Below are positions 2,873 to 60,273 of a stretch of DNA of 64,000 nucleotides, one piece after another (the first letter of the stretch is position 1; every line of letters starts with the position of its first letter). Below the pieces are notes generated by a model. That model saw only the letters and a list, made by a program, of their open reading frames with translations. It did no database searches and had not been told where the DNA came from. The translations under genes were made by a program, and so were the position numbers. Source of the DNA: Candidatus Alcyoniella australis (lineage in GTDB: Bacteria > Lernaellota > Lernaellaia > JAVCCG01 > Alcyoniellaceae); the NCBI GenBank assembly GCA_030765605.1, contig JAVCCG010000017.1, positions 35,582 through 99,581 on the forward strand, given 5' to 3'.

Positions 2873-2900
2873 TTGACACAGATCGCGAGGTCTCTATAAT
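2873..2900 (+). promoter_or_regulatory. sigma70-like promoter for metK (TTGACA-16 bp-TATAAT)
   Basis: Consensus hexamers at 2873-2878 and 2895-2900. The leader to the ATG is only about 35 nt. Confidence 0.55.
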
Positions 2901-2940: not shown

Positions 2941-5375
<2,435 letters not shown>

Positions 5376-5403
5376 TCGGCTGAAGCGACATTTAGAACCT
5401 TCA

Positions 5404-5433
5404 AGGCCCGGCGCTTGCCGGGCCTTTTCATTT
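5404..5433 (+). terminator. Rho-independent terminator after ahcY
   Basis: GGCCCGGC-gctt-GCCGGGCC followed by TTTTCATTTT. Confidence 0.65.
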
Positions 5434-5500: not shown

Positions 5501-6424
5501 ATGAAAAAAATTAAACACTGGTTGCAGGCCATCGGCCTGTTCCGTGGATTTTGGCTGGTGAGCCTGATCCCGGTCTCGACCGGCGCGGCGCTGGCGTGGC
5601 ACGGAGGCGCACGGTTCAGCGCGCCGCTGTTCGCCCTGACCCTGGCCGGAGTTTGGGCGCTGCACATTGCGGCCAATCTGCTCAACGACTACTACGACCA
5701 CATCAACGGCACGGATGATCACAACCAGGTAATCACGCCGTTCAGCGGCGGCACGCGGGTGATCCAGCAGGGGCTGCTCCCGGCGCGCTCGCTGCGGCGC
5801 GCGGCAATCGGTTGCCAAGTGGCCGGGGTGCTGCTGCTGACGCTCTGCGCCGCAATCAGCGGTCGCTGGTCGATCATGATCTGGGCGCCGCTGGGCGTAC
5901 TGGGCGGACTGTTCTACTCCGGCGCCGGGCTGTGGCTGATCTCGCGCGGGCTGGGCGAGCTGACCCTGGGCGCGGTGTTCGGCCCGACGCTGGTCAGCCT
6001 GGGCTGCTATGTGCAGTCCGGATCGATTAGCAACGCCGCCTGGCTGGCCGGGATCGTCTTCGGCCTGGGCGCAAGCGCCGTGCTGACGATCAACGAGTTC
6101 CCCGACGTGCCTGCCGACGAACTGGCGGGCAAACGCACGCTGGTGGTGCGCCTGGGCCGACAACGCGGATTCGCACTCTACGCAACGATGATCGCGCTGA
6201 TGCCGGTATGCATCCTGCTCGGCGTGGGATTCAGACTGTTCCCCATCGGCTGCCTGGCCGCGCTGATCCCTGCGGCTCTGGGCGCGCTGATCGTTGCGCG
6301 CGGCGAGCGGCCGCTGCGCGAGCTGGCCAAACAGATCGCGGCCTCGCGCAACACGATCGTGCTGCACGTGTCCACCTGGGCGCTGTTTCTGGCCGGCATC
6401 GGCTCGCACCAAATCGGTCGATGA
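5501..6424 (+). CDS. menA: UbiA-superfamily prenyltransferase, MenA-like (1,4-dihydroxy-2-naphthoate polyprenyltransferase family)
   Basis: NDYYDHINGTD Asp-rich motif and a polytopic membrane profile. The N-terminal region resembles my recollection of E. coli MenA. The start is chosen at MKKIKHW. Confidence 0.6.
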   Translation: MKKIKHWLQAIGLFRGFWLVSLIPVSTGAALAWHGGARFSAPLFALTLAGVWALHIAANLLNDYYDHINGTDDHNQVITPFSGGTRVIQQGLLPARSLRRAAIGCQVAGVLLLTLCAAISGRWSIMIWAPLGVLGGLFYSGAGLWLISRGLGELTLGAVFGPTLVSLGCYVQSGSISNAAWLAGIVFGLGASAVLTINEFPDVPADELAGKRTLVVRLGRQRGFALYATMIALMPVCILLGVGFRLFPIGCLAALIPAALGALIVARGERPLRELAKQIAASRNTIVLHVSTWALFLAGIGSHQIGR

Positions 6425-8775
6425 AACCGGTCGGCCGTTCCGAGCTGCTAGGCGTCTCGGGGCTGTTGCTGCTGCTGATCGCGCTGTTCCTCTCGCCGCT
6501 GCTGATCCCCGGCGTGATGCCTTCGGCCTCGGGCATTTTGCACGTTTGGCCGACCTTTGAGATCGACGCGGACTATCGTCCCTACAACGATCTGCCCTCG
6601 GACCTGGCGGTGCAGCACGAGCCGTGGACGCATTACGCCCGGCAGCGGTTGGCCCAGGGCGAGCTGCCGCTGTGGAACCCGCACCAGGCCGCGGGCGTGC
6701 CGTTCATCGCCAACATGCAATCCGCGGTCTACTCGCCGCTGACCTGGATCGTCTACCTGCTGGGTGACCGCTGGGGGCCGGTGGCGCGCGCCGCGCTGAT
6801 TCTCTACCTCTCGGGCATGCTGGCCTTCCTGCATTTGCGCGGGCTGGGTTTGGGCCCGCGTCCGGCCCTGGTGGGAATGGTCGGCTGGACCTTTGGCGGG
6901 GCCCTGGCGCACTGGCTGTTCTGGCGCAGCTCGTTGTTCGGATTTCTGCTTCCCGGCTCGCTGTACCTTACCGACCGCGCCTTTAAACGGCCGGATAAAC
7001 TCGCCTCGTGCGCGTTGCTACTAGCGGCGCTGGTGGCCCTGGGAATCACCGCGGGCCACCCCGAGCGGGTGATGCTCTGCGCTGTGGCCGCGGCTGCCAA
7101 CCTAGTCTATCGCAGCTTGATCTGCGGCCTGCCGTGGCGCGAGCGTGGGCGCGCGATCCTGGGACTTGTGGGCGGAGGGCTCTACGGCGGGCTGCTCTCG
7201 TCAGCCGCGCTGCTGCCGTTTATCCAGTACTCGCAAAACAGCGTGGCCTGGGTCTCGCGCGCCGGGGGCTACGCCGCGGGCCTGCTGCCCAAGTCCGCGG
7301 CCGTGCTGTTGTTCGCGCCGGATCTCTACGGCAATCGCGGGCTGTGGTTCAGCATCGATTGGTCCGCGCCGTGGACCAACGATTGCGAGGCGCTCAACGC
7401 GGTTGTCGGCCTGGCGCTGCTGATGCTCGCGGCAATCGGGCTGCGCCGCGGCAGGGCGGGGCGTTGGTTTTATTTTGCGTTGGCAGTGGGCGCGGCGCTG
7501 TTGGCCTACGGCGTGTGGCCCGCCTGGCCGCTGGCCAATCAGCTACCCCTGCTCGATCGCATGGCCCTTGGCCGCTTCAGCGCGCTGTTGGCCTACGCGC
7601 TGGTGGTGCTGGCCGTCATGGCCCTGCAGGATTTGGCGCAGGGAAAGTACGACCCGCTTTCCGGGCCCTCGCTGGTGCGCATCGGCGCGCTGTTCAGCGT
7701 TGGAGCGCTGCTCGTGGCCTGGAATCTGCTCAACGTCGATCGCTTTGTGCGCTCGCCGGGGATCCAAACCTGGTGGGTCGGCTGCGCCGTGCTTGCCGCG
7801 TTGAGTGCCGTAATCTGCCTCTGGCTGCTGCGCGGCATCGGCCGCAACAGCGGCTGGGCCTGGGTCGGACTGGTAGTGTTGGTGTTCCTCGAGACCGGCG
7901 GGCGCTGGGCCGGGTTCTCACCGCAGGTGCCCGATGAACTGTATTTTCCGCGCACAGCCGCGGTCGAACAACTGCGCGCTGCTGCCGGTCGCGGACGTTT
8001 CGCGGCGGTGGGATTGGCCAACCCGTTTGCGCCCAACCTGGCTACCGAGTACGGGCTGCGCGACGTCAAGGTCTACGACAACCTGGAGATCATGGAGTAC
8101 CGCGTGCTGTTCGACGAACGGATCGAACATTTCAGCACTGGTCAGATCACCCAGCGCTTTGACCTTGACGCGCTAAGCGTGCTCGGGGTTCAGGCGGTCC
8201 TGGCGGTCAACGAGGACCCGGCGACCCTGGCGACGGCCGACGCCTCGCGCCTCGAGCCATACTACGCGGGTCGCGGCGTGTTCATCAGTCGCAATCCCGA
8301 GGCCCTGCCACGAGCGTTTTTTGTCAGCGCCGCGCGTCAAATTGCGAGCCCGGCCGACGTGTTCGAGCGCGACGCTCAGGGCCTGATCGCACGCCGCGCA
8401 GTGCTGTTGCAGCAGGCGCAGCCGCCGTTGCAGCCGATTCCACTCGAGTCCATCGATGCAGTACGCTGGCTGCGCGACACACCGGAGCTGGTGCAGCTTG
8501 AGGTCGATGCGCCACGGCGAGGCTGGCTGGTGCTGCTCGACTCGTACTTTCCAGATTGGTGCGTGCTGGTAGACGGCGAGCAAGCAACGCTGCTGCGCGC
8601 AAACCTGGCGTTCCGCGCGGTGGCGATCGAGGCCGGCCGTCACGTGGTGCGCTTCGAGTATCGGCCGCGCTGGGTTTACCTCGGGCTGCTGCTCAGCGCT
8701 CTGGCCACGCTGATTTGGCTGGCGGCGGCTGCGACCTGCGTGCTGCGCGGTCGACGGATGACAAGCGGCGACTAG
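6421..8775 (+). CDS. YfhO-like GT-C family polytopic membrane protein (putative polyprenyl-phosphate-dependent glycosyltransferase)
   Basis: About 784 aa with many N-terminal TM helices and a LPLWNPHQAAGVPFIANMQSAVYSPL motif. It has a large C-terminal extracytoplasmic domain and a final TM helix. Its ATG overlaps the menA stop (ATGA). Confidence 0.4.
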   Translation: MKPVGRSELLGVSGLLLLLIALFLSPLLIPGVMPSASGILHVWPTFEIDADYRPYNDLPSDLAVQHEPWTHYARQRLAQGELPLWNPHQAAGVPFIANMQSAVYSPLTWIVYLLGDRWGPVARAALILYLSGMLAFLHLRGLGLGPRPALVGMVGWTFGGALAHWLFWRSSLFGFLLPGSLYLTDRAFKRPDKLASCALLLAALVALGITAGHPERVMLCAVAAAANLVYRSLICGLPWRERGRAILGLVGGGLYGGLLSSAALLPFIQYSQNSVAWVSRAGGYAAGLLPKSAAVLLFAPDLYGNRGLWFSIDWSAPWTNDCEALNAVVGLALLMLAAIGLRRGRAGRWFYFALAVGAALLAYGVWPAWPLANQLPLLDRMALGRFSALLAYALVVLAVMALQDLAQGKYDPLSGPSLVRIGALFSVGALLVAWNLLNVDRFVRSPGIQTWWVGCAVLAALSAVICLWLLRGIGRNSGWAWVGLVVLVFLETGGRWAGFSPQVPDELYFPRTAAVEQLRAAAGRGRFAAVGLANPFAPNLATEYGLRDVKVYDNLEIMEYRVLFDERIEHFSTGQITQRFDLDALSVLGVQAVLAVNEDPATLATADASRLEPYYAGRGVFISRNPEALPRAFFVSAARQIASPADVFERDAQGLIARRAVLLQQAQPPLQPIPLESIDAVRWLRDTPELVQLEVDAPRRGWLVLLDSYFPDWCVLVDGEQATLLRANLAFRAVAIEAGRHVVRFEYRPRWVYLGLLLSALATLIWLAAAATCVLRGRRMTSGD

Positions 8776-8794
8776 CGCACTAACATCCACGACC

Positions 8795-9928
8795 ATGGAT
8801 GATCGAACCATCGCCGTTGTCGGCGGCGGTCCGGCGGGCGCCTACCTGGCGCATTTGCTCGGGGCTGCCGGTGCGCGCGTGGACCTCTACGAACCGCGCG
8901 GCGCGTGGGAAAAACCCTGCGGCGGCGGCGTGCCGCCCAAAGTGCGCCAGCTGATCCCCGAGGCCGCGAGCTACGGCGGACCGCGCAATGTAGTGGACAC
9001 CGGCGTGTTCATCAGCCCGCGCGGAATCGAGATGAGCTTTCGCTCCGGGCGACCGCTGTGGATCGTGCCGCGCCTTGATTTCAACAAGCATTTTCTCAAC
9101 CTGGCGCGGCAACACGCGGGCGTGGCGATCCATCGTCTGCGGGTCAGGGCGGTCCGGCGCGACGGCGATGGCTGGGTGCTGCACTGCGGCAAGGGCGAGC
9201 GGCCGCGACGCGCGGACTTCCTGGTGGCTGCCGACGGCGCGAGCTCGCTGGTGCGCAGGTCCGTGCTCGGAGCGCTGGGCCGCCGCAACCTGACGACCTG
9301 TTTTGGATTTCTCACCGATCCGCCGGACGACCCCACGCGCGCGGTCAGCCAGTTTCTCCCCGGATCGGGCTACATCTGGGCCTACCCGCGGCCGGACCGG
9401 ATGTGCGTGGGCGCGGGCACCTGGGGCTCGGCGCGTTCGCTGGATCGGGTAGTGCGGCGCTTTATCGATCAGCGTTTTCCCGGCATTAAAATTCGCTCGC
9501 GCTGGTCGGCGCTGATCCCGTTCGTGCACGAACCGGAACTCTACGACCGGCCCTGCTCAGGCGAGCGCTTCGCCGCGTTGGGCGACGCCGCGGGCTGGGT
9601 CGACGCGATCACCGGCGAGGGGATCCTCTACGCGCTGTGGGGCGCGCGGCTGCTGGCGCAACGATTAATCGAGGACCGTCCGTTGCTGTTCGACGATGAC
9701 TGGCGCGACGCCTTTGGCCGCGAGCTGCGGCGCGTATCCCAGATGGGCCTGCGCTTCTACCGGCCGGAGAACATCGAACGCGCTTTTAGCCTGGCCGCGC
9801 GCTCGCGCACGCTGGGCGAACTGGTGGCGCAGATCATGACCGATCAGCCCGAGTACAGTCGGGTGCCGATGATGTTCGCCCGCCGACTGCCGCTGGTGGC
9901 CCTGGACCTGCTGCGGGGCAGACGATGA
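8795..9928 (+). CDS. geranylgeranyl reductase family FAD-dependent oxidoreductase (MenJ/ChlP-like)
   Basis: IAVVGGGPAGAYLA dinucleotide-binding motif and a PCGGG motif; 377 aa. Confidence 0.65.
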   Translation: MDDRTIAVVGGGPAGAYLAHLLGAAGARVDLYEPRGAWEKPCGGGVPPKVRQLIPEAASYGGPRNVVDTGVFISPRGIEMSFRSGRPLWIVPRLDFNKHFLNLARQHAGVAIHRLRVRAVRRDGDGWVLHCGKGERPRRADFLVAADGASSLVRRSVLGALGRRNLTTCFGFLTDPPDDPTRAVSQFLPGSGYIWAYPRPDRMCVGAGTWGSARSLDRVVRRFIDQRFPGIKIRSRWSALIPFVHEPELYDRPCSGERFAALGDAAGWVDAITGEGILYALWGARLLAQRLIEDRPLLFDDDWRDAFGRELRRVSQMGLRFYRPENIERAFSLAARSRTLGELVAQIMTDQPEYSRVPMMFARRLPLVALDLLRGRR

Positions 9929-11043
9929 ACCGTCGCGAATGGTCGGTGGCGGCGCTGTTGGGAGCGGCGTTCTCGTTCTACGTGGTTTTCGACCAGTACG
10001 GCCTGCTGGGCTGGGCCCAAAGCGCGTTGGGTGTGGACGTGTGGGGCATGGCGCCGCTGCTTGGTTGCCTGGTGGTCTGCGGAGCGCTGAGCGCCGTGGC
10101 CGCGTCGCGGGCGATCGTCGCGCTGCGGCCGGGATTCGCGGCGCAGATCAAGCTGATTGCCACGGCCCAACTCGCCGAAGGGATCGTCGGACTGTTGTGC
10201 TTGGCCGCGGACTCGCGCGCAGAGCTGTTGTGGCCGTTGGCCGCGCTCGGAGTCGTGCAGGGCGTGCACATCGTGCTGATCCTCGGGTTGCTAAACAGTG
10301 CCACGCGTCCGGCGCGGCTGGGCTGGTCAGCGGGCGTGGCCGCGGGCATCGCCTATTTGCTTGCTAATTTGCTGACGGCGGTCTTCCCTGACGATCCGCG
10401 CGGCCTGTGCCTCGCGGCCTGCGTGCTGAGTCTGGTTGTGGGCTTGCTCGCGGCCCTGGCAGTGGAGCAATCGTTGCCGCAGGTGGAACTGCGCGAGCTC
10501 AATCGGGAGCCGGGAGGCCGCTCGCTGATCGCCGTGCTGCTGCTGGTGGTGGTACTCGACAGCGCGCTGTGGCAGGTGCTGACCTCCCTGGGCGGCGGCG
10601 TGGCCTTGGGGCCCCAATCTCCGCGCGAACTGTGGCTGCTCAATGGGTTGCTGCACCTGGCCGCGGCAATCGTTGGGGGGCTGCTCTGGCCGCTGCTCGG
10701 GTCGCGTCGCCTGGCCGCGCTCGGCGGACTGCTGATCGGCCTGAGCGCGGCGCTGGTGGCTTGGTCCCCGGACAACGCGCCGCTGTGGGGCGTGCTGCTG
10801 CTGCAAAGCGCGTCGGTCGGGATCTACTCGGTGGCGCTCTATGCCGCGTGGTCCGAGCTTGGGCTGCGGGCCGTGGGGCCGGGCATCGCCCTGGTCGGCT
10901 TTGTCGGATCTCCGTTGGGCGTGGGCCTGGGAATGTTGCTGGGACGCTTCCCGCGCCTCGGATTGTGGCTGCTGGCGCTGTGTGCGATCTGCGTCGGACT
11001 CGGTTTTCTCATACGGCCGACATCGCGCAGTACAGATCGCTGA
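9925..11043 (+). CDS. polytopic integral membrane protein (transporter-like, roughly 10-12 TM)
   Basis: Highly hydrophobic 372-aa ORF. Its start overlaps the upstream stop (ATGA). Confidence 0.45.
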   Translation: MNRREWSVAALLGAAFSFYVVFDQYGLLGWAQSALGVDVWGMAPLLGCLVVCGALSAVAASRAIVALRPGFAAQIKLIATAQLAEGIVGLLCLAADSRAELLWPLAALGVVQGVHIVLILGLLNSATRPARLGWSAGVAAGIAYLLANLLTAVFPDDPRGLCLAACVLSLVVGLLAALAVEQSLPQVELRELNREPGGRSLIAVLLLVVVLDSALWQVLTSLGGGVALGPQSPRELWLLNGLLHLAAAIVGGLLWPLLGSRRLAALGGLLIGLSAALVAWSPDNAPLWGVLLLQSASVGIYSVALYAAWSELGLRAVGPGIALVGFVGSPLGVGLGMLLGRFPRLGLWLLALCAICVGLGFLIRPTSRSTDR

Positions 11044-11067: not shown

Positions 11068-11096
11068 TTGACTGCACGCTGCGAGGGGGTGATAAT
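11068..11096 (+). promoter_or_regulatory. sigma70-like promoter (TTGACT-17 bp-GATAAT with TG extension)
   Basis: Hexamers at 11068-11073 and 11091-11096, upstream of the small secreted-protein gene. Confidence 0.4.
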
Positions 11097-11210: not shown

Positions 11211-11627
11211 ATGTATCGCAAACTCCTGTTGATATCGATCATGATGGCACTGCTGGCCGTGCCGATGAGCATCATCGCCGGACAGATTCCCTCTCCTGTG
11301 CCGCCCAAACCGCCTCCGATCCAGAGCACCTACCCCTTCGGCCCCGAGGAGACGGTCTACGGCGTGACTGTGCAGGAGGGCTGGTTTAAGAAGATGCACA
11401 TCCAGCACGATTGGCATTACGCCTACTACATGAACTGCCACACCGTGTCCAAGCACTTCCTCAATCGCTATGGTAACGGCCAGATGGTGAAGATCGATGA
11501 CGCGCTGGATGAAACCAACTCGCTGGACATCATCAACATCTCGAGCCACTACGATTGGTCGCGCATCGCGCTGAGCGCGTTCACCGGCTCCAACTACTGT
11601 TCGGTAACGATTACCGAGCGACCCTAG
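11211..11627 (+). CDS. small secreted protein (138 aa, signal peptide, lower GC than its surroundings)
   Basis: N-terminal signal peptide MYRKLLLISIMMALLAVPMSIIAGQ. The aromatic/His-rich mature part (HIQHDWHYAYYMNCH) has no recognised domain. Confidence 0.5.
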   Translation: MYRKLLLISIMMALLAVPMSIIAGQIPSPVPPKPPPIQSTYPFGPEETVYGVTVQEGWFKKMHIQHDWHYAYYMNCHTVSKHFLNRYGNGQMVKIDDALDETNSLDIINISSHYDWSRIALSAFTGSNYCSVTITERP

Positions 11628-11651
11628 AACCGCAACGCAGCTGATACACGA

Positions 11652-11683
11652 CGGGGGACCCGCTTGGGTCCCCCGTTTTTTTT
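11652..11683 (+). terminator. Rho-independent terminator
   Basis: CGGGGGACCC-gctt-GGGTCCCCCG followed by T8. Confidence 0.8.
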
Positions 11684-25600: not shown

Positions 25601-26404
25601 CTATTCGCAGGCCGTAGCGCGCATCAGCAGTTCGGCCTCGAGTTGGTTGCTCACCGCTCCCAGGGCGTCGGCGACCTGTACGCTGAACTGTGACGACGAC
25701 TCCGCGGGCGCGGTTTCGGTCAGGGTTACCTCAAGCTCCAGAGTTCCCTCGGTCTGTTCCAGATCCGGGGAGATGATGAACGGATTAATGCTTCCTTCAT
25801 CGATGATGACCAGAATCATCCCACCGCCGAGATTGCCGTCGAGATCGGCGAAATCGACCAGCATCGTGCTGGTGCTGCCCACCAGATTGCACACCGGGTT
25901 GGGATCGAAGCGCAGGTTGCTGATCGAGGGTGTGCGGTTGGCCGGGGCCACCTCGAACGTCGCCTCGAGTACGTTGCTTTGGTTACCCGCGGCGTCGACG
26001 ATCCAGACGGCTAGTAGATGCTCACCAGGTTGCGCGTCCTCGGCCGGCAGCACATTGGACATCAGCTCGCCCTCGCCGCGCTCCTCGTGGATGATCGTCA
26101 CCGGCTCGCGCTCCACCGTATCCACTGCCGCGTGAATCGATCCGCCGATCAGGTCGGCATCGGGATCAACGAAATGGATCACGAAGTTCAGCGCGCCGCC
26201 CTGTGGCACCTGCTCGGGGTAGGTGATCAACTCCGAGATCTGCGGCGCACTGTAGTCGTCGTCATCGTCGTCGTCGATGTCGTCGTCCTGGTCGTCGTCA
26301 TCATCATCATCGTCGTCGCCGCTATCCGCGCAGGCTGCCAGCAGCAGCGCGGTTAGGGCGATAGCGAGCAGAATGCGCCAAAGTGTGATGCGTGTTGTTT
26401 TCAC
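25601..26404 (-). CDS. lipoprotein with poly-Asp linker, function unknown
   Basis: Lipobox LLAAC followed by ADSGDDDDDDDDDQDDDIDDDDDDD. Confidence 0.55.
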   Translation of the reverse strand: MKTTRITLWRILLAIALTALLLAACADSGDDDDDDDDDQDDDIDDDDDDDYSAPQISELITYPEQVPQGGALNFVIHFVDPDADLIGGSIHAAVDTVEREPVTIIHEERGEGELMSNVLPAEDAQPGEHLLAVWIVDAAGNQSNVLEATFEVAPANRTPSISNLRFDPNPVCNLVGSTSTMLVDFADLDGNLGGGMILVIIDEGSINPFIISPDLEQTEGTLELEVTLTETAPAESSSQFSVQVADALGAVSNQLEAELLMRATACE

Positions 26405-42230: not shown

Positions 42231-44435
42231 ATGAAGCGCTGGATATTTATGGCGATGCTGCTGGCGACCCTGGCCCTTGTGTTTACCATCGGCGGCGGTT
42301 GCAGCTGCAGCGGCGATGATGACGACGACGACGACGATGATGACGATGACGATGACAACCAAGGCGATGTGCCCGACGAGGCGTTTCAGGAGATCTGCGG
42401 CGAGCGCGACTGGCTTGATACCTTGCAGCCGACCGAGCTGGTCTACGACTCGGGCAACGAGTTCGGCAACGACGGCCGCCTGCATTACGACCTGGCCGAG
42501 GGCGACGTGGCCGCGGTGCACTTTATTCCCGAGCACTCGCTGTGGATCAAGAAGCTCCGCGTGCACTTCACCGGCGAGGGGGGGCCGATCCGGGTCCACG
42601 TCTATGAGGGGTACGGCCGCTCGCGTCCGAACACCGACGTCGACCTGACCGAACCGATCGAGCAGGATATCGAAACCGACGCCGGATGGGTCGAGATCGA
42701 CATCAGCGACCGCCAGCTGGTGGTGCTGCCCTCGAACCACTTCTGGGTCGGTTACGAGCACGTCAACGAGCAGCCCTACATCAGCATGGACAACGGCGTG
42801 GACAACGATTCGACCCACAGCCTGATCCGCATCGAGGCCGCGCAGCACGATATCAGCCCCTTCGATTGGATCGGCCTGGGCGACGTGGCGTTTATGATCC
42901 AGGTTACGGGCGACTACTTCTGCGAACTGGATATCAACGAGCGCCAGTTCACCAACGTCAGCGAGCAGGCCGGACTCTCCGAGCTCTCGGCTGTGCGCAT
43001 CAACTGGGGCGACGTCAACAACGATGGCTGGGACGACATGCTCCTGCATCGTCTGGGCTATATCGACGAAACCGCCAATCTGCTGCTCAACAATCAGGAC
43101 GGTACGTTCGAGAACGTCACCGACGATTCGGACCTCGACGGCCACTACGCGAGCTTCGGCGGCCTGGCCGATTTTGACAACGACGGCAACCTCGATGTGT
43201 ACCTCGGGGTCAACGTACCCAATGAGGACGCCGATCCGCCGGACAACGGCGCGCGTTCGCTGATCATGCTCGGCGACGGCGAGGGCGGATTCACTGAAGT
43301 CGCGGGCAACGGCGTGGACCTCGAAGCCTCGACGTCCGCGGCCTCCATCGCCGACTACGACGCCGACGGCGACCTCGACATTTACGTGGGCAACTGGCTG
43401 GTCAAGTACCCCTCTCCGGCGTGCTGGTCCGACTTCATTTTTAACGGCAAGGGCAACGGCAAGTTCGATGAGACCTCCGCCGCGACCGGCATCGCCGTCC
43501 TTGAGGCGCGTCCGAGCTACGGCGTGACTTGGGTCGACTTCGACATGGACAACGACATGGACATCTCGGTCGCCAACTACGGCCGCGTCGACAACTTCCT
43601 GCTCGAAAACAAGAACGGACACTTCACCGACGTCGCGCCCCAAGTCGAGCTCGACCGCCAGGGCGTGGGCACCGGCGGCAACACCTTCGGCACCGACTGG
43701 GGCGACGCCAACAACGACGGCTACTTCGATACCTACCAGGCCGAGATCGCCCACCCGCGCTACCAGCCCAGCTCGGACATCGGCTCGATGATGTTCGGAA
43801 TGGGCCCGGACGAGGACTGGCTGTTCCAGAATGTTACCGAAGCCGCCGGGATCTTCTACGACGAGGGGCAGGTCGACCCCAGCTGGGTCGACTACAACAA
43901 CGACGGCCGCCTCGATTTCGCGCTCAGCGTGCTCTACACGTTGCAATACTTCCGGCTCTACCGCCAGGAAGAGGACGGTACGTTCACCGACGTGACCTAC
44001 ATCACCGGCACCGAGATTCTGGACACCAACAACAACGCCTGGGCCGACTTTGACAACGACGGCGACATGGACCTGATGAACATGGACCGCCGTTCCGGCG
44101 GGCACGCCAACCTGTTCCGCAACGACATCGGCAACGAGCTGAACTGGCTCGAGATCAGCCTGCGCGGCACCGACTCCAACCGCATGGCCGTGGGCGCGCG
44201 GGTCGAGATTTCCAGCCCGAGCATCGAGTACCAGGTGCGCTACGTGCAGGCGGGCAAGGGACACGCCTGTAGCCAGCATTCGGCGCGGCTGCACTTCGGC
44301 CTGAACACCGACGATGTGGTGCAGATCCTGACCGTCTACTGGCCCTCGGGATTGGAAGAGGAGTTCGGCGAGATCCCGGCCAACAGCTGGATCAAGATCA
44401 CGGAGGGCGACGACGACTACGAGGTCGTGCAGTAA
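42231..44435 (+). CDS. CRTAC1-family lipoprotein (FG-GAP/VCBS repeats plus ASPIC/UnbV domain) with poly-Asp linker
   Basis: Lipobox GGGCSC, then D14. Repeated DxDxDGxxD calcium-loop motifs. C-terminal RMAVGARVEI...HFGL (UnbV/ASPIC-like). Confidence 0.6.
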   Translation: MKRWIFMAMLLATLALVFTIGGGCSCSGDDDDDDDDDDDDDDNQGDVPDEAFQEICGERDWLDTLQPTELVYDSGNEFGNDGRLHYDLAEGDVAAVHFIPEHSLWIKKLRVHFTGEGGPIRVHVYEGYGRSRPNTDVDLTEPIEQDIETDAGWVEIDISDRQLVVLPSNHFWVGYEHVNEQPYISMDNGVDNDSTHSLIRIEAAQHDISPFDWIGLGDVAFMIQVTGDYFCELDINERQFTNVSEQAGLSELSAVRINWGDVNNDGWDDMLLHRLGYIDETANLLLNNQDGTFENVTDDSDLDGHYASFGGLADFDNDGNLDVYLGVNVPNEDADPPDNGARSLIMLGDGEGGFTEVAGNGVDLEASTSAASIADYDADGDLDIYVGNWLVKYPSPACWSDFIFNGKGNGKFDETSAATGIAVLEARPSYGVTWVDFDMDNDMDISVANYGRVDNFLLENKNGHFTDVAPQVELDRQGVGTGGNTFGTDWGDANNDGYFDTYQAEIAHPRYQPSSDIGSMMFGMGPDEDWLFQNVTEAAGIFYDEGQVDPSWVDYNNDGRLDFALSVLYTLQYFRLYRQEEDGTFTDVTYITGTEILDTNNNAWADFDNDGDMDLMNMDRRSGGHANLFRNDIGNELNWLEISLRGTDSNRMAVGARVEISSPSIEYQVRYVQAGKGHACSQHSARLHFGLNTDDVVQILTVYWPSGLEEEFGEIPANSWIKITEGDDDYEVVQ

Positions 44436-58815: not shown

Positions 58816-60273
58816 GTGCCAAAGCAGCCTTTAACAGACCGCGGAGAGCGCCGCAGGGCCCAAAGCCGCGCCGAGCGCTTGGGATTGCTGCTGGCGGTTT
58901 TAGGCGGGGTCGCACTGCGGCTGCCGCTGATCGACGCTTGCGGAATCATGCCTGCCGACGGCCTGCGCCTGGCAGTCTGGTCGATCACCGTGCAGGACAA
59001 AGCGCTGCCGCTCTATCCGCTGCTGCTCCAGGCGATGCGGCCGCTGTGCGGCAACGCGCAGCTCGCCGGCGGGCTGGTCGCGGCATTGCTCGGGGCGTGG
59101 GCCGTGGTGCCGCTCTACCTTTTGTTGAGCGAGCGGGTAAGTCGCGTCGCGGGCTGGATCGGCGTGCTGATCGCCTCGAGCTCGTTGCACTGCATTGCGC
59201 TCAGCGCCGGGGTCGTGCCCAATCCGGCGTTGATCGTGCCGCTGCTTTACGCCTGGCTCTTTTGGGGCCGACTAGATCCGGACGACCGCGCGAACCTGAT
59301 TAAATTCAACCTGGCCTGCGGCCTGGCCGCTCTGGCGCGTCCCGAGGGTTGGGCGCTGATCGCACCCTGCGCCTGGGCCAACTATCGCTACATCCGGCAA
59401 CGGGGTTTCTCTCGTTGGCTGGGGCCGGGTCTGGCCGCGGCGCTGCCCTACCTGGCGCTGGTCGGCTGGATGGCGCTGCTGGGGCACAGCGGCTACGCCG
59501 GCGAGTTCTTTGGCTACTCACTATCACGGCTGAGCGTCGGGGGCGTGCTGCACGGCCTGACCGGCTATCTCGCGGCGCTGGTGGGACACGGGTTTGCCTG
59601 GTGGTGCCTCGTTGCGCTCTGCGGCTGCGTCGCGGCGCTGTGTGGAAAGGGGTTTGCGCGCAGCCTGGCGTTCGAGGCGCTGGCGATTGTGGCGGTGCTG
59701 CTCGCGGCGCTCTCGATCCAGTGGGCGCCGGACCTGCACCGGTTGCTCACGCCCGCGGTCTTTGCGGTCTACGTGAGCGCTGCGGCGGCCCTTGGCGCGC
59801 TGCTGCGCGGGCTGCGGGCACGCAGGACGTTGCAAAGCGCGGTCGCGGTGACGATCGGGTTACTGGTGTTGCTCAGCGCGGCCCTGAGCTACGGCATTCT
59901 CTCCGATGCGCGCCAGGATCTGCGCGGTGTGTTCGACGATCGACTGCGGTCCTGGCAGGTCGCGGCGGCCGCGACTCAGGGCCGATTGCACAGCGACCTG
60001 CCGCTGGAGGCCTCGTACTATTCGGGCCGCGAATTCGACCGTTACTCGATCGAGACTGCGCTGCCCGGCGATACGTTGGCGCTGCACAGCACCGAGGGCT
60101 GCCTGGAACAGCGGATCGATGAGTTGCGGGAGCGCTTCGAGCTGCGAGTGCTGCGCCGGTTGACCGCTCCCCGGGCTTTTAAGTACGGCCCGGCCAACGT
60201 AAGCTGTTTCAATGGAAGCGATCCGGGAGAGCTGCACGTCTCGATAGTGATCGCTCTGGACCAAGTGAGGTAA
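58816..60273 (+). CDS. GT-C superfamily membrane glycosyltransferase-like protein (ArnT/PMT, GT39/GT83-like)
   Basis: 485 aa, about 10 TM helices plus a roughly 130-aa C-terminal soluble domain. Topology resembles ArnT-like proteins. No decisive motif. Confidence 0.35.
   Translation: MPKQPLTDRGERRRAQSRAERLGLLLAVLGGVALRLPLIDACGIMPADGLRLAVWSITVQDKALPLYPLLLQAMRPLCGNAQLAGGLVAALLGAWAVVPLYLLLSERVSRVAGWIGVLIASSSLHCIALSAGVVPNPALIVPLLYAWLFWGRLDPDDRANLIKFNLACGLAALARPEGWALIAPCAWANYRYIRQRGFSRWLGPGLAAALPYLALVGWMALLGHSGYAGEFFGYSLSRLSVGGVLHGLTGYLAALVGHGFAWWCLVALCGCVAALCGKGFARSLAFEALAIVAVLLAALSIQWAPDLHRLLTPAVFAVYVSAAAALGALLRGLRARRTLQSAVAVTIGLLVLLSAALSYGILSDARQDLRGVFDDRLRSWQVAAAATQGRLHSDLPLEASYYSGREFDRYSIETALPGDTLALHSTEGCLEQRIDELRERFELRVLRRLTAPRAFKYGPANVSCFNGSDPGELHVSIVIALDQVR

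What the first reader, a model, noticed from the sequence alone, without database searches (positions are those of the whole stretch)
5501..11043. Translationally coupled operon: MenA/UbiA prenyltransferase, YfhO-like GT-C membrane protein, geranylgeranyl-reductase (MenJ-like) and a polytopic membrane protein
Four consecutive plus-strand genes overlap by ATGA stop/start codons or lie 20 nt apart. A terminator (5404-5433) precedes them and a promoter for the next gene follows them. MenA-family prenyltransferases attach polyprenyl chains to DHNA. GGR-family flavoproteins include MenJ, which saturates the menaquinone side chain, and archaeal/bacterial geranylgeranyl reductases. A large YfhO-type GT-C glycosyltransferase inserted between the two is not part of any described menaquinone operon. 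I infer that the operon may make a partly saturated and/or glycosylated prenyl-quinone, or a reduced polyprenyl-phosphate sugar carrier for envelope glycosylation; the fourth protein may be a flippase or exporter.
Basis: partly seen in the sequence, partly recalled or inferred. Interest (0 to 1): 0.7.

Follow-up and report, generated by a model that had tools for sequence, protein, structure and literature searches.

The report
MenA-like prenyltransferase, prenyl reductase, MFS module
Four tightly packed genes in an uncultured Antarctic-lake bacterium contain a conserved three-gene module (quinone-type prenyltransferase, isoprenoid-chain reductase, unclassified transporter) that probably makes a partly saturated menaquinone, while the large glycosyltransferase between them is an addition found only in this lineage.

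Summary
Four plus-strand genes (5501-6424, 6421-8775, 8795-9928, 9925-11043) have ATGA overlaps at two junctions and a 19-nt spacer at the third. A terminator-like hairpin precedes them and a promoter-like site follows. The window is from Candidatus Alcyoniella australis (phylum Lernaellota).

The family calls are right:
- g1 is a MenA-clade UbiA prenyltransferase.
- g2 is a YfhO-family GT-C glycosyltransferase.
- g3 is a geranylgeranyl-reductase (GGR)-type flavoprotein with all the GGR motifs.

Comparison of about 20 independent loci changes the interpretation. All 16 loci compared jointly carry g1 and g4, and 12 of them also carry g3, usually with overlapping stop and start codons. g2 is present in only three contigs, all from Alcyoniella-like organisms, and the same MAG holds a 60% paralogue elsewhere. 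A four-gene pathway making a glycosylated product is therefore not supported.

My best reading is that g1 prenylates a naphthoquinone head group, g3 saturates the side chain, and the transporter handles the head group or the product. g2 is a co-expressed envelope glycosyltransferase. No function was tested. This is a new variant of a known kind, of moderate interest.

The parts
5403..5433 (+). Intrinsic-terminator-like hairpin after ahcY, marking the upstream edge of the cluster
   Evidence: 10-bp stem with 8 GC pairs, 4-nt loop and a T-rich tail. The sequence was read.
5501..6424 (+). g1: MenA-clade UbiA-superfamily membrane prenyltransferase (307 aa)
   Evidence: Pfam UbiA scores 103 bits (cut-off 34) and the top ten NCBIfam hits are all MenA-type (naphthoate prenyl- or phytyltransferase) or MenA-like prenyltransferase models. 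TIGR00751 menA scores 100.5 against a cut-off of 102.15. The best solved relative is UBIAD1, 2e-13. Identity to E. coli MenA is 29%. Asp-rich motifs are N62-D63-x-x-D66...D72 and D202-x-x-x-D206. The module-linked copies form one clade in an NJ tree.
6421..8775 (+). g2: YfhO-family GT-C glycosyltransferase (784 aa), inserted here only in the Alcyoniella lineage
   Evidence: Pfam YfhO scores 42 bits (cut-off 28.5), C-terminal stretch only. The NCBI name is 'YfhO family protein' and most listed homologues carry PF09586. The AlphaFold model has pLDDT 87 and pTM 0.90. Foldseek finds AftD at 2e-8 and ArnT at 4e-5, followed by STT3, AftA, DPY19 and PMT. Asp61 is invariant in the stretch just after the first TM helix across 25 homologues. 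g2 is absent from all module loci except L095 and L097.
8758..8786 (+). Weak promoter-like site at the g2/g3 junction (possible internal start for g3-g4)
   Evidence: ATGACA-17-TAACAT, 9 of 12 matches. This is a consensus match only.
8795..9928 (+). g3: geranylgeranyl-reductase-type FAD flavoprotein (377 aa), the presumed prenyl-chain reductase
   Evidence: NCBIfam GG-red-SF scores 113 bits (cut-off 158.8) and BchP-ChlP 72 bits. Motifs found: GGGPAG 10-15, PCGG 41-44 with Cys42, YIWAYPx7GAG 193-208, GDAAG 263-267. A profile of the orthologues hits Thermoplasma DGGGPL reductase 3oz2 over the full length at 4e-20, with the Cys and YxWxFP motifs aligned. Orthologues at 40-47% identity always follow a g1 orthologue.
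9925..11043 (+). g4: 12-helix MFS-fold transporter of a small unnamed family (372 aa), the constant partner of g1
11068..11096 (+). Promoter-like site for the next, separate gene (11211-11627); downstream edge of the cluster
   Evidence: TTGACT-17-GATAAT, 10 of 12 matches. A strong terminator at 11650-11677 follows the small ORF.

Best explanation
The four genes form a real co-oriented, translationally coupled cluster, but it is a composite.

The conserved unit has three genes:
- a MenA-clade prenyltransferase (g1);
- a GGR-type flavin prenyl reductase (g3);
- a dedicated MFS transporter of a small new family (g4).

Proposed mechanism:
1. g1 sits in the membrane and uses its two Asp-rich motifs to bind a polyprenyl diphosphate. 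It attaches that chain to a naphthoquinone-type head group, most likely 1,4-dihydroxy-2-naphthoate, giving demethylmenaquinone. This is inferred from family membership.
2. g3 uses FAD and its conserved Cys42 to saturate one or more isoprene double bonds. It could act on the finished quinone, as MenJ and Archaeoglobus AF0648 do, or on the prenyl diphosphate before transfer, as ChlP does for phylloquinone. This is inferred from motifs and linkage.
3. g4 moves a small amphipathic or aromatic molecule that belongs to this step. I favour supply of the head group from outside, or handling of the product. Only the MFS fold and the linkage to g1 are shown; the substrate is a guess.

g3 is missing from some module loci whereas g4 never is. 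That pattern fits side-chain saturation as an optional, lineage-variable trait.

g2 is a GT-C glycosyltransferase that uses a polyprenyl-phosphate-linked sugar on the outer face of the membrane. It entered the g1/g3 junction in the Alcyoniella lineage and is co-expressed there. It most likely decorates an envelope polymer or protein and is not a step in quinone chemistry.
For: Gene structure.

Organism: Ca. Alcyoniella australis. PMC9324843 describes it as an anaerobe with complex I, Nqr and a Qrc menaquinone reductase, so it needs a quinone.

g1:
- MenA models dominate the hits.
- The module orthologue P0124 passes the MenA equivalog cut-off, 124 against 102 bits.
- UBIAD1 is the only solved relative found.
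- Sister-clade homologues sit beside a polyprenyl synthase (L093) or UbiD (L094).

g3: all GGR hallmark motifs are present. The best full-length structural relative is an archaeal GGR. Homologues at 31-37% identity pass the GG-red-SF cut-off.

g4: confident MFS fold.

Co-conservation:
- g1-g3-g4 occurs in L003, L005/L006, L009, L012, L013, L014, L018, L098, L099, L101, L105 and L112.
- g1-g4 alone occurs in L007, L008, L100, L102 and L103.
- In the joint comparison g1 was found in 16 of 16 loci. g4 was found in 14, and as partial copies at the contig ends of the other two (L095, L105). g3 was found in 12.
- MenA-like genes outside this clade (L107-L176 except L112) have neither partner.
- Overlapping junctions are conserved.

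g2: found only in the window, L095 and L097. A 60% paralogue, P0002, carries the same MAG's locus-tag prefix.
Against: - No enzyme activity, lipid or transcript was examined.
- g1 falls 1.6 bits short of the MenA trusted cut-off, and the Lernaella orthologue falls further short at 88 bits. The acceptor could therefore differ from DHNA.
- g3 scores below the GG-red-SF cut-off. Some GGR-fold proteins (QhpG, LodB, GoxB) are hydroxylases, and QhpG is the second-best model at 74 bits.
- I could not check whether these genomes hold DHNA-synthesis genes or a second MenA.
- No described menaquinone pathway needs an MFS protein, so the constant g1-g4 pairing is not explained by the menaquinone model alone.
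- g2 has kept its exact position and an overlapping start in three organisms that share only 64-82% protein identity. This hints at selection for co-expression and so at some functional tie.
- GT-C genes of another family (PMT_2) lie a few genes upstream of the module in other Lernaellota.
Confidence: 0.5

Rival explanations
1. All four genes act in one pathway that builds a glycosylated prenyl lipid: either a glycosylated, partly saturated prenylquinone, or a reduced polyprenyl-phosphate sugar carrier that the GT-C (g2) uses and the MFS (g4) flips.
For: - g2 is translationally coupled to g1. It has kept this position in three diverged Alcyoniella-like contigs.
- GT-C enzymes use polyprenyl-phosphate sugars, and g2's closest folds are AftD, ArnT and AftA.
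- From my own knowledge, mycobacteria place a UbiA-family enzyme (DPPR synthase Rv3806c) next to the GT-C arabinosyltransferase AftB.
- From my own knowledge, archaeal GGR paralogues saturate dolichol carriers. PMC10821996 notes that GGRs are promiscuous.
- PMT_2-type GT-C genes lie upstream of the module in other Lernaellota.
Against: - About 17 module loci lack g2, and g1 then overlaps g3 or g4 directly.
- Non-Lernaellota module loci (L005, L007, L008, L009, L100, L103) have no GT-C nearby.
- g1 matches MenA models. No phosphoribosyltransferase-type UbiA model appears among the 19 NCBIfam hits.
- The same MAG holds a 60% paralogue of g2 elsewhere, so g2 looks like a duplicated general envelope enzyme.
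- The g2 copy in L095 is interrupted by a frameshift.
- None of the window proteins scanned (30 beyond g1-g4, not all ORFs) is a GT2 polyprenyl-phosphate sugar synthase.
Confidence: 0.12
2. The module makes a prenylated aromatic compound or other prenyl lipid that is not the respiratory quinone. Examples would be a pigment, antioxidant or signalling lipid. In this reading g4 is its proton-coupled exporter.
For: - g1 belongs to a separate clade with its own strongly conserved TPFSGGTRVIQ segment. It sits at or just below the MenA cut-off.
- The structures most similar to g4 include drug and aromatic-amine exporters and the lipid transporter EfpA.
- Constant pairing of a prenyltransferase with a transporter is typical of secondary-metabolite clusters (my own knowledge).
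- The module is rare and patchily spread over lineages with 45-65% GC.
Against: - The module carries no head-group biosynthesis or tailoring genes in any locus.
- In Lernaellota it sits among housekeeping genes (metK, ahcY, fabH) with stable synteny.
- One orthologue passes the MenA equivalog threshold.
- The organism needs a quinone, and no second Alcyoniella or Lernaella MenA-like protein was named among the 120 best of 255 hits.
Confidence: 0.22
3. g3 is not a reductase. It is a GGR-fold flavin monooxygenase, like QhpG, LodB or GoxB, that hydroxylates the aromatic head group.
For: The QhpG model is the second-best NCBIfam hit at 73.7 bits, and GoxB also hits. g3 is below the GG-red-SF cut-off. 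The peptidyl-tryptophan dihydroxylase 7ctq matches the N-terminal half.
Against: - GG-red-SF is the best model.
- The full-length best structural relative is the Thermoplasma GGR. The catalytic-Cys motif PCGG and the YxWxFPx7GxG motif both align with it.
- The organism is described as a strict anaerobe, which argues against an O2-dependent hydroxylase.
Confidence: 0.06
4. The adjacency reflects inherited synteny with no shared function.
For: In Lernaellota the module travels with unrelated housekeeping genes: metK, ahcY, fabH and galT.
Against: The g1-g4 and g1-g3-g4 linkage, with overlapping codons, persists in lineages of very different GC content that share no other neighbours.
Confidence: 0.03

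Closest known systems
Mycobacterial MenA plus MenJ (menaquinone-9 to MK-9(II-H2))
   Same: A DHNA-type UbiA prenyltransferase combined with a GGR-family flavoprotein that saturates the quinone side chain.
   Different: The mycobacterial menA and menJ are not adjacent (my own knowledge). g3 scores only 28 bits on the MenJ model against a cut-off of 700. The mycobacterial pathway has no MFS partner.
Archaeoglobus fulgidus AF0648, menaquinone-specific prenyl reductase
   Same: A GGR paralogue devoted to saturating menaquinone tails (PMC10821996).
Phylloquinone route of cyanobacteria and plants: ChlP reduces GGPP to phytyl-PP and MenA attaches it
   Same: MenA-type transferase plus GGR, giving a naphthoquinone with a saturated tail. 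g1 scores 90 bits on the cyanobacterial/plant MenA model and g3 scores 72 bits on BchP-ChlP.
   Different: Both scores are far below the cut-offs of 225 and 343. The host is a non-phototrophic anaerobe. In the phylloquinone route the genes are not clustered with a transporter.
bchG - ORF428 (PucC-like MFS) - bchP of purple-bacterial photosynthesis gene clusters (from my own knowledge)
   Same: The same three protein types in one operon: a UbiA-superfamily prenyl-attaching enzyme, an MFS protein and a GGR reductase acting on the attached tail.
   Different: g1 is MenA-like, not chlorophyll-synthase-like: ChlG scores 30 bits against a cut-off of 313. g4 and its relatives show no PucC (PF03209) hit. 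There are no other pigment genes nearby.
YfhO/CsbB-type GT-C glycosylation (Bacillus and Listeria teichoic acids; PgfM1/2 in streptococci)
   Same: g2 passes the Pfam YfhO threshold, has the GT-C fold and keeps an invariant Asp in the stretch just after the first TM helix.
   Different: The host has a Gram-negative-type envelope, since Lpt genes are present in the related locus L003. Only the C-terminal 68 residues align to the Pfam model. No partner GT2 was found in the window.
Mycobacterial UbiA (DPPR synthase Rv3806c) next to GT-C arabinosyltransferases
   Same: A UbiA-superfamily gene adjacent to a GT-C gene. AftD is g2's top structural match.
   Different: g1 belongs to the MenA clade and not to the phosphoribosyltransferase clade. 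The adjacency is confined to one lineage.

Membership tests
UbiA superfamily (PF01040) | Pfam model score above the gathering threshold | tested here: met
   103.3 bits against 34.2, covering residues 22-266.
UbiA superfamily (PF01040) | Two Asp-rich Mg/diphosphate-binding motifs (NDxxDxxxD-type and DxxxD) | tested here: met
   N62-D63-YY-D66-HING-T-D72 and D202-VPA-D206. All are invariant in 11 clade members.
MenA, DHNA polyprenyltransferase (TIGR00751 / PRK06080) | Equivalog HMM score at or above the curated cut-off | tested here: inconclusive
   g1 scores 100.5 against 102.15. Module orthologue P0124 scores 124.1 and passes. P0126 from Lernaella scores 87.9 and fails. All PRK06080 sub-models are far below their cut-offs.
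MenA, DHNA polyprenyltransferase (TIGR00751 / PRK06080) | Closer to MenA/UBIAD1 than to any other UbiA subfamily | tested here: met
   The top ten NCBIfam hits are MenA-type (naphthoate prenyl- or phytyltransferase) or MenA-like prenyltransferase models. ChlG, BchG, CtaB and DGGGPS-type models score 30 bits or less. The only PDB hit is UBIAD1. Identity to E. coli MenA is 29%.
MenA, DHNA polyprenyltransferase (TIGR00751 / PRK06080) | Uses 1,4-dihydroxy-2-naphthoate as acceptor; the genome supplies or acquires DHNA | not testable with these tools
   There are no men or mqn genes in the 64-kb window. The rest of the genome could not be scanned.
Geranylgeranyl reductase superfamily (TIGR02032) | Subfamily HMM score at or above the cut-off | tested here: not met
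   113.2 against 158.8. Homologues at 31-37% identity score 176-183 and pass.
Geranylgeranyl reductase superfamily (TIGR02032) | FAD-binding GxGxxG, catalytic Cys in PxCGG, YxWxFPx7-8GxG and GDAAG motifs | tested here: met
   GGGPAG 10-15, PCGG 41-44, YIWAYPRPDRMCVGAG 193-208, GDAAG 263-267. These align with the same motifs of Thermoplasma GGR 3oz2.
MenJ (NF045655) | Equivalog HMM score | tested here: not met
   28 bits against a cut-off of 700.
YfhO family (PF09586), GT-C glycosyltransferases | Pfam model score above the gathering threshold | tested here: met
   42.2 against 28.5, but only residues 692-759 align. Most listed homologues carry PF09586.
YfhO family (PF09586), GT-C glycosyltransferases | GT-C fold with a conserved acidic residue in the first periplasmic loop | tested here: met
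   The model has pLDDT 87. Foldseek gives AftD 2e-8 and ArnT 4e-5, then STT3, AftA, DPY19 and PMT. Asp61, in the stretch just after the first TM helix, is invariant in 25 homologues.
YfhO family (PF09586), GT-C glycosyltransferases | Partner GT2 that loads the sugar onto polyprenyl phosphate (CsbB/GtrB type) encoded nearby | tested here: not met
   None among the window proteins scanned with Pfam (30 beyond g1-g4, not all ORFs). It could lie elsewhere in the genome.
Major facilitator superfamily | Sequence match to the MFS models | tested here: inconclusive
   g4 itself has no hit. 11 of its 21 family representatives hit PF07690, best 2.6e-11. The family profile gives only E 0.03 to MCT1 in the PDB.
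Major facilitator superfamily | Twelve-helix, two-domain MFS fold | tested here: met
BchG / PucC-like MFS / BchP operon | Prenyltransferase of the chlorophyll-synthase clade and MFS of the PucC family | tested here: not met
   ChlG scores 30.5 bits against 313 and BchG 23 against 212. No PUCC hit was found in any of the 21 g4-family members.

The most novel reading that the evidence does not exclude
The invariant pair, a MenA-clade prenyltransferase plus the new MFS family, could be a quinone salvage device. In this reading the transporter takes up a naphthoquinone head group such as DHNA released by neighbouring microbes. g1 then prenylates it at the membrane and g3 tunes tail saturation. This would let uncultured anaerobes that lack the men or futalosine pathway build their own menaquinone. 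In the Alcyoniella lineage the inserted GT-C might additionally tie this lipid chemistry to envelope glycosylation.
Probability: 0.15. Interest if true: 0.65.

Novelty: new variant of a known kind. Interest (0 to 1): 0.42.

Why it matters
Partly saturated menaquinones are standard chemotaxonomic markers, but outside actinobacteria and a few archaea the enzymes that make them are largely unassigned (my own knowledge). This module offers a candidate prenyltransferase-reductase pair for Gram-negative-type anaerobes. It also flags a small, unnamed MFS family that is genetically locked to a quinone prenyltransferase, a link that described menaquinone pathways do not include.

If the transporter supplies the head group, quinone cross-feeding in anoxic communities would become directly testable, and one reason why such phyla resist cultivation would be suggested.

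The work also illustrates a general caution. A translationally coupled operon can hold a lineage-specific passenger gene, so gene content in one genome should not be read as a pathway.

Tried and rejected
- The context of the g2 paralogue P0002 could not be retrieved; it is not on record.
- The nearest non-Alcyoniella YfhO homologue (P0005, Thermoanaerobaculia) sits in an unrelated context.
- A locus scan with the 21-member g4 alignment failed because no stretch was conserved enough.
- The afdb50 fold library was unavailable.
- The paper that describes the organism has no held supplement and does not mention quinone biosynthesis genes.
- tblastn with the E. coli MenB-F proteins against all fetched loci and the window gave only generic crotonase-type hits far from the module. 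It therefore gave no information on DHNA supply.
- One distant g4-family member hit the aromatic-acid/H+ symporter model. This proved to be C-domain-to-N-domain MFS repeat similarity and not a specific relationship.
- I considered a CcoA-like copper importer because two family members are fused to CcoO-like cytochrome c. I set this aside because the invariant TM7/TM8 residues are Asp212 and His244 without the Met motifs. That is a comparison from memory, not a test.
- I considered descent from the BchG/PucC/BchP operon and rejected it on HMM scores.
- Rfam and tRNA scans found nothing relevant near the cluster.
- Literature searches for this gene combination returned nothing.
Full report
**1. 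What is in the sequence**

Four plus-strand ORFs fill 5501-11043.
- g1: ATG 5501 to TGA 6424, 307 aa.
- g2: ATG 6421 to TAG 8775, 784 aa.
- g3: ATG 8795 to TGA 9928, 377 aa.
- g4: ATG 9925 to TGA 11043, 372 aa.

g1/g2 and g3/g4 share ATGA. g2 and g3 are 19 nt apart. A terminator-like hairpin at 5403-5426 with a T-rich tail follows ahcY (4119-5375). A promoter-like site at 11068-11096 precedes the next, separate ORF. No consensus promoter lies between the terminator and g1, so read-through from metK-ahcY cannot be excluded. A weak promoter-like match sits before g3.

Exact protein matches identify the source as a 124.5-kb contig of the MAG Candidatus Alcyoniella australis, phylum Ca. Lernaellota. 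The describing paper reports an Ace Lake anaerobe with complex I, Nqr and a Qrc menaquinone reductase (PMC9324843).

**2. The four proteins**

*g1* is a UbiA-superfamily enzyme: Pfam 103 bits.
- Its top ten NCBIfam hits are MenA-type or MenA-like prenyltransferase models. It falls just short of the TIGR00751 menA cut-off, 100.5 against 102.15.
- UBIAD1 is the only solved relative found. Identity to E. coli MenA is 29%.
- Both Asp-rich motifs are present and invariant in the clade.

*g3* has every hallmark of geranylgeranyl reductases.
- The motifs are GxGxxG, PCGG with Cys42, YxWxYPx7GxG and GDAAG.
- A profile of its orthologues aligns over the full length with Thermoplasma digeranylgeranylglycerophospholipid reductase at 4e-20, motif for motif.
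- It scores below the GG-red-SF cut-off (113 against 159) and is not MenJ (28 against 700).

*g2* passes the Pfam YfhO threshold, but only through its C-terminus.
- Its alignment-based AlphaFold model (pLDDT 87, pTM 0.90) matches GT-C glycosyltransferases: AftD, ArnT, STT3, AftA, DPY19 and PMT.
- Asp61, in the stretch just after the first TM helix, is invariant in 25 homologues.

*g4* has no family hit of its own.
- It has only 21 cluster representatives among 1.84 billion proteins.
- 11 of these 21 hit Pfam MFS_1.

**3. Comparative genomics: the decisive evidence**

I fetched contexts of g1 homologues, of g3 homologues from one genome per species, and of g1-clade homologues from metagenomes. 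I mapped all four proteins onto them with tblastn and clustered the neighbours.

- **g1 and g4.** Every locus carrying a g1-clade prenyltransferase with enough flanking sequence also carries a g4 homologue just downstream.
- **g3.** Twelve of the 16 loci compared jointly also carry g3 between g1 and g4.
  - The order g1-g3-g4 occurs in L005/6, L009, L012, L013, L014 (the original FEN-1099 MAG), L018, L098, L099, L101, L105 and L112.
  - Lernaella stagnicola L003 has the variant metK-g1-g3-ahcY-g4.
  - L007, L008, L100, L102 and L103 have g1-g4 only.
- **Junctions.** They overlap (ATGA, GTGA or TGATG) throughout.
- **Spread.** The carriers span 45-65% GC. Outside Lernaellota they share no other neighbour.
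- **Clade specificity.** The module-linked g1 proteins form one clade in an NJ tree. MenA-like genes outside that clade have neither partner.
- **g2.** It occurs between g1 and g3 only in the window, in L095 and in L097.
  - L095 has the same four-gene order at 44-70% identity, and its g2 is split by a frameshift.
  - L097 is a short contig showing g1-g2.
  - These copies are closer to the window's g2 than to P0002, a 60% paralogue carrying the same MAG's locus-tag prefix.
- **Unrelated YfhO homologues.** The next-closest YfhO homologue examined lies in an unrelated context.

The conserved functional unit is therefore g1 + g4, usually with g3. g2 is an insertion specific to the Alcyoniella lineage.

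**4. Most likely mechanism**

*Shown:* the family and fold of each protein, the catalytic motifs, and the linkage pattern.

*Inferred:*
- g1 prenylates a naphthoquinone-type head group, most likely DHNA.
  - One module orthologue passes the MenA equivalog threshold.
  - Sister-clade genes sit next to a polyprenyl synthase or UbiD.
  - The organism has quinone-dependent complexes.
- g3 saturates isoprene units of the tail. It could act after attachment, like MenJ or AF0648, or before attachment on the prenyl diphosphate, like ChlP. GGRs are known to be promiscuous (PMC10821996).
- g3 being dispensable in some lineages, while g4 is not, matches tail saturation as a variable trait.
- g4 transports a small amphipathic or aromatic compound belonging to this step. 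Its substrate is unknown. I favour head-group supply or product handling.
- g2 most probably decorates an envelope acceptor using a polyprenyl-phosphate sugar and is merely co-expressed.

I put about 0.5 on this composite model.

**5. Rival explanations**

  - For it: g2's position and overlapping start have survived substantial divergence. PMT_2-type GT-C genes lie a few genes upstream of the module in other Lernaellota.
  - Against it: most module loci lack any GT-C, g1 is not of the phosphoribosyltransferase type, and g2 has a paralogue elsewhere.
- *A non-respiratory prenylated product exported by g4* gets about 0.22.
  - For it: the g1 clade is distinct and borderline for MenA, and g4 resembles exporters.
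  - Against it: no head-group or tailoring genes accompany the module, and it sits among housekeeping genes.
- *g3 as a hydroxylase* gets about 0.06. It is disfavoured by the motifs, by the best structural relative and by the anaerobic lifestyle.
- *Pure synteny with no shared function* gets about 0.03.

**6. Comparison with known systems**

Functionally the module resembles MenA+MenJ, AF0648, and the ChlP+MenA route to phylloquinone. In gene content (UbiA-type enzyme, MFS, GGR) it parallels the bchG-ORF428-bchP operon of purple bacteria, which I recall from my own knowledge. HMM scores exclude membership of the MenJ, ChlG/BchG and PucC families.

I found no paper describing this gene combination. 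I rate it a new variant of a known kind.

**7. Limits**

Nothing was tested biochemically. The rest of the genome could not be searched for DHNA-pathway genes or a second MenA. The tree is a simple NJ tree. Taxonomic identity of several carrier contigs is unknown.

Noticed in passing
P0247 and P0256 (distant g4-family members); locus L010 8001-9917: Two members of the small g4 MFS family carry a C-terminal CcoO/FixO-like mono-haem cytochrome c domain. In L010 this fusion sits beside a PF00884 sulfatase-type gene and a PAP2 phosphatase, with no UbiA gene nearby.
   Followed up: partly
L003 1748-8620; L012 205-4451; L018, L099, L105 (same layout): In other Lernaellota, two or three PMT_2-type GT-C glycosyltransferase genes and one or two GDSL lipases lie directly upstream of metK-ahcY-UbiA-GGR-MFS. 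The window lacks them at that position and has only a weak PMT_2-like ORF far away.
   Followed up: partly
window 58816-60273 (+): A 485-aa membrane ORF with a sub-threshold PMT_2 hit (22 bits against a cut-off of 26). It may be the displaced counterpart of the PMT_2 genes seen upstream of metK in relatives.
   Followed up: no
L003 12064-13515: Lernaella stagnicola has a different type of S-adenosylhomocysteine hydrolase (483 aa, 38% identical to the window's). It lies between the reductase and the MFS gene instead of between metK and the prenyltransferase. Methyl-cycle genes therefore stay interleaved with the module despite rearrangement.
   Followed up: no
L015 7011-9062; L025; L016 (Thermoplasmatales MAGs): The nearest archaeal relatives of g3 (31-33% identity, passing the GG-red-SF cut-off) have an archaeal UbiA-family prenyltransferase (best hit PRK13591, below its cut-off) just upstream: immediately in L015, about 1 kb away in L016 and L025. 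This is an analogous prenyltransferase-reductase pair.
   Followed up: partly
L052 4371-6863; L038 10560-11063; 16-18 Blastocatellia-type loci: Another branch of g3 homologues is regularly followed by a canonical TetA-like MFS transporter and a CopD-like membrane protein. This is a second, independent reductase-MFS association, and it may simply be synteny within that lineage.
   Followed up: no
L095 1785-1795: The YfhO-like gene in this Alcyoniella-like contig changes reading frame near residue 413 and is called as two ORFs. This is either an assembly error or decay of the inserted gene.
   Followed up: no
window 2873-2900 (+): A perfect 12-of-12 sigma-70 consensus (TTGACA-16-TATAAT) lies in front of metK. 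It would place the transcript start inside the longest metK ORF, so the true metK start is probably a downstream Met.
   Followed up: no
window 6208-6420 (+): The g2 reading frame is open for a further 71 codons upstream, overlapping g1. The NCBI record and the homologue alignment support the 6421 start.
   Followed up: partly
window 25601-26404 (-) and 42231-44435 (+): Two putative secreted or lipoproteins carry long poly-aspartate runs just after their signal sequences. The second also has FG-GAP and ASPIC/UnbV domains.
   Followed up: no
window 11211-11627 (+): A small signal-peptide ORF (138 aa) with no family hit has its own promoter-like site and a strong terminator (11650-11677). It lies directly after the cluster but is not conserved with it.
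   Followed up: no
P0142, P0143, P0154, P0158, P0164 etc.: A set of about 510-aa MenA-like proteins, two of them named Chloroflexi by NCBI, is fused to a pyridoxamine-5'-phosphate-oxidase-like (PF01243) domain. This is an unusual architecture for a quinone prenyltransferase.
   Followed up: no
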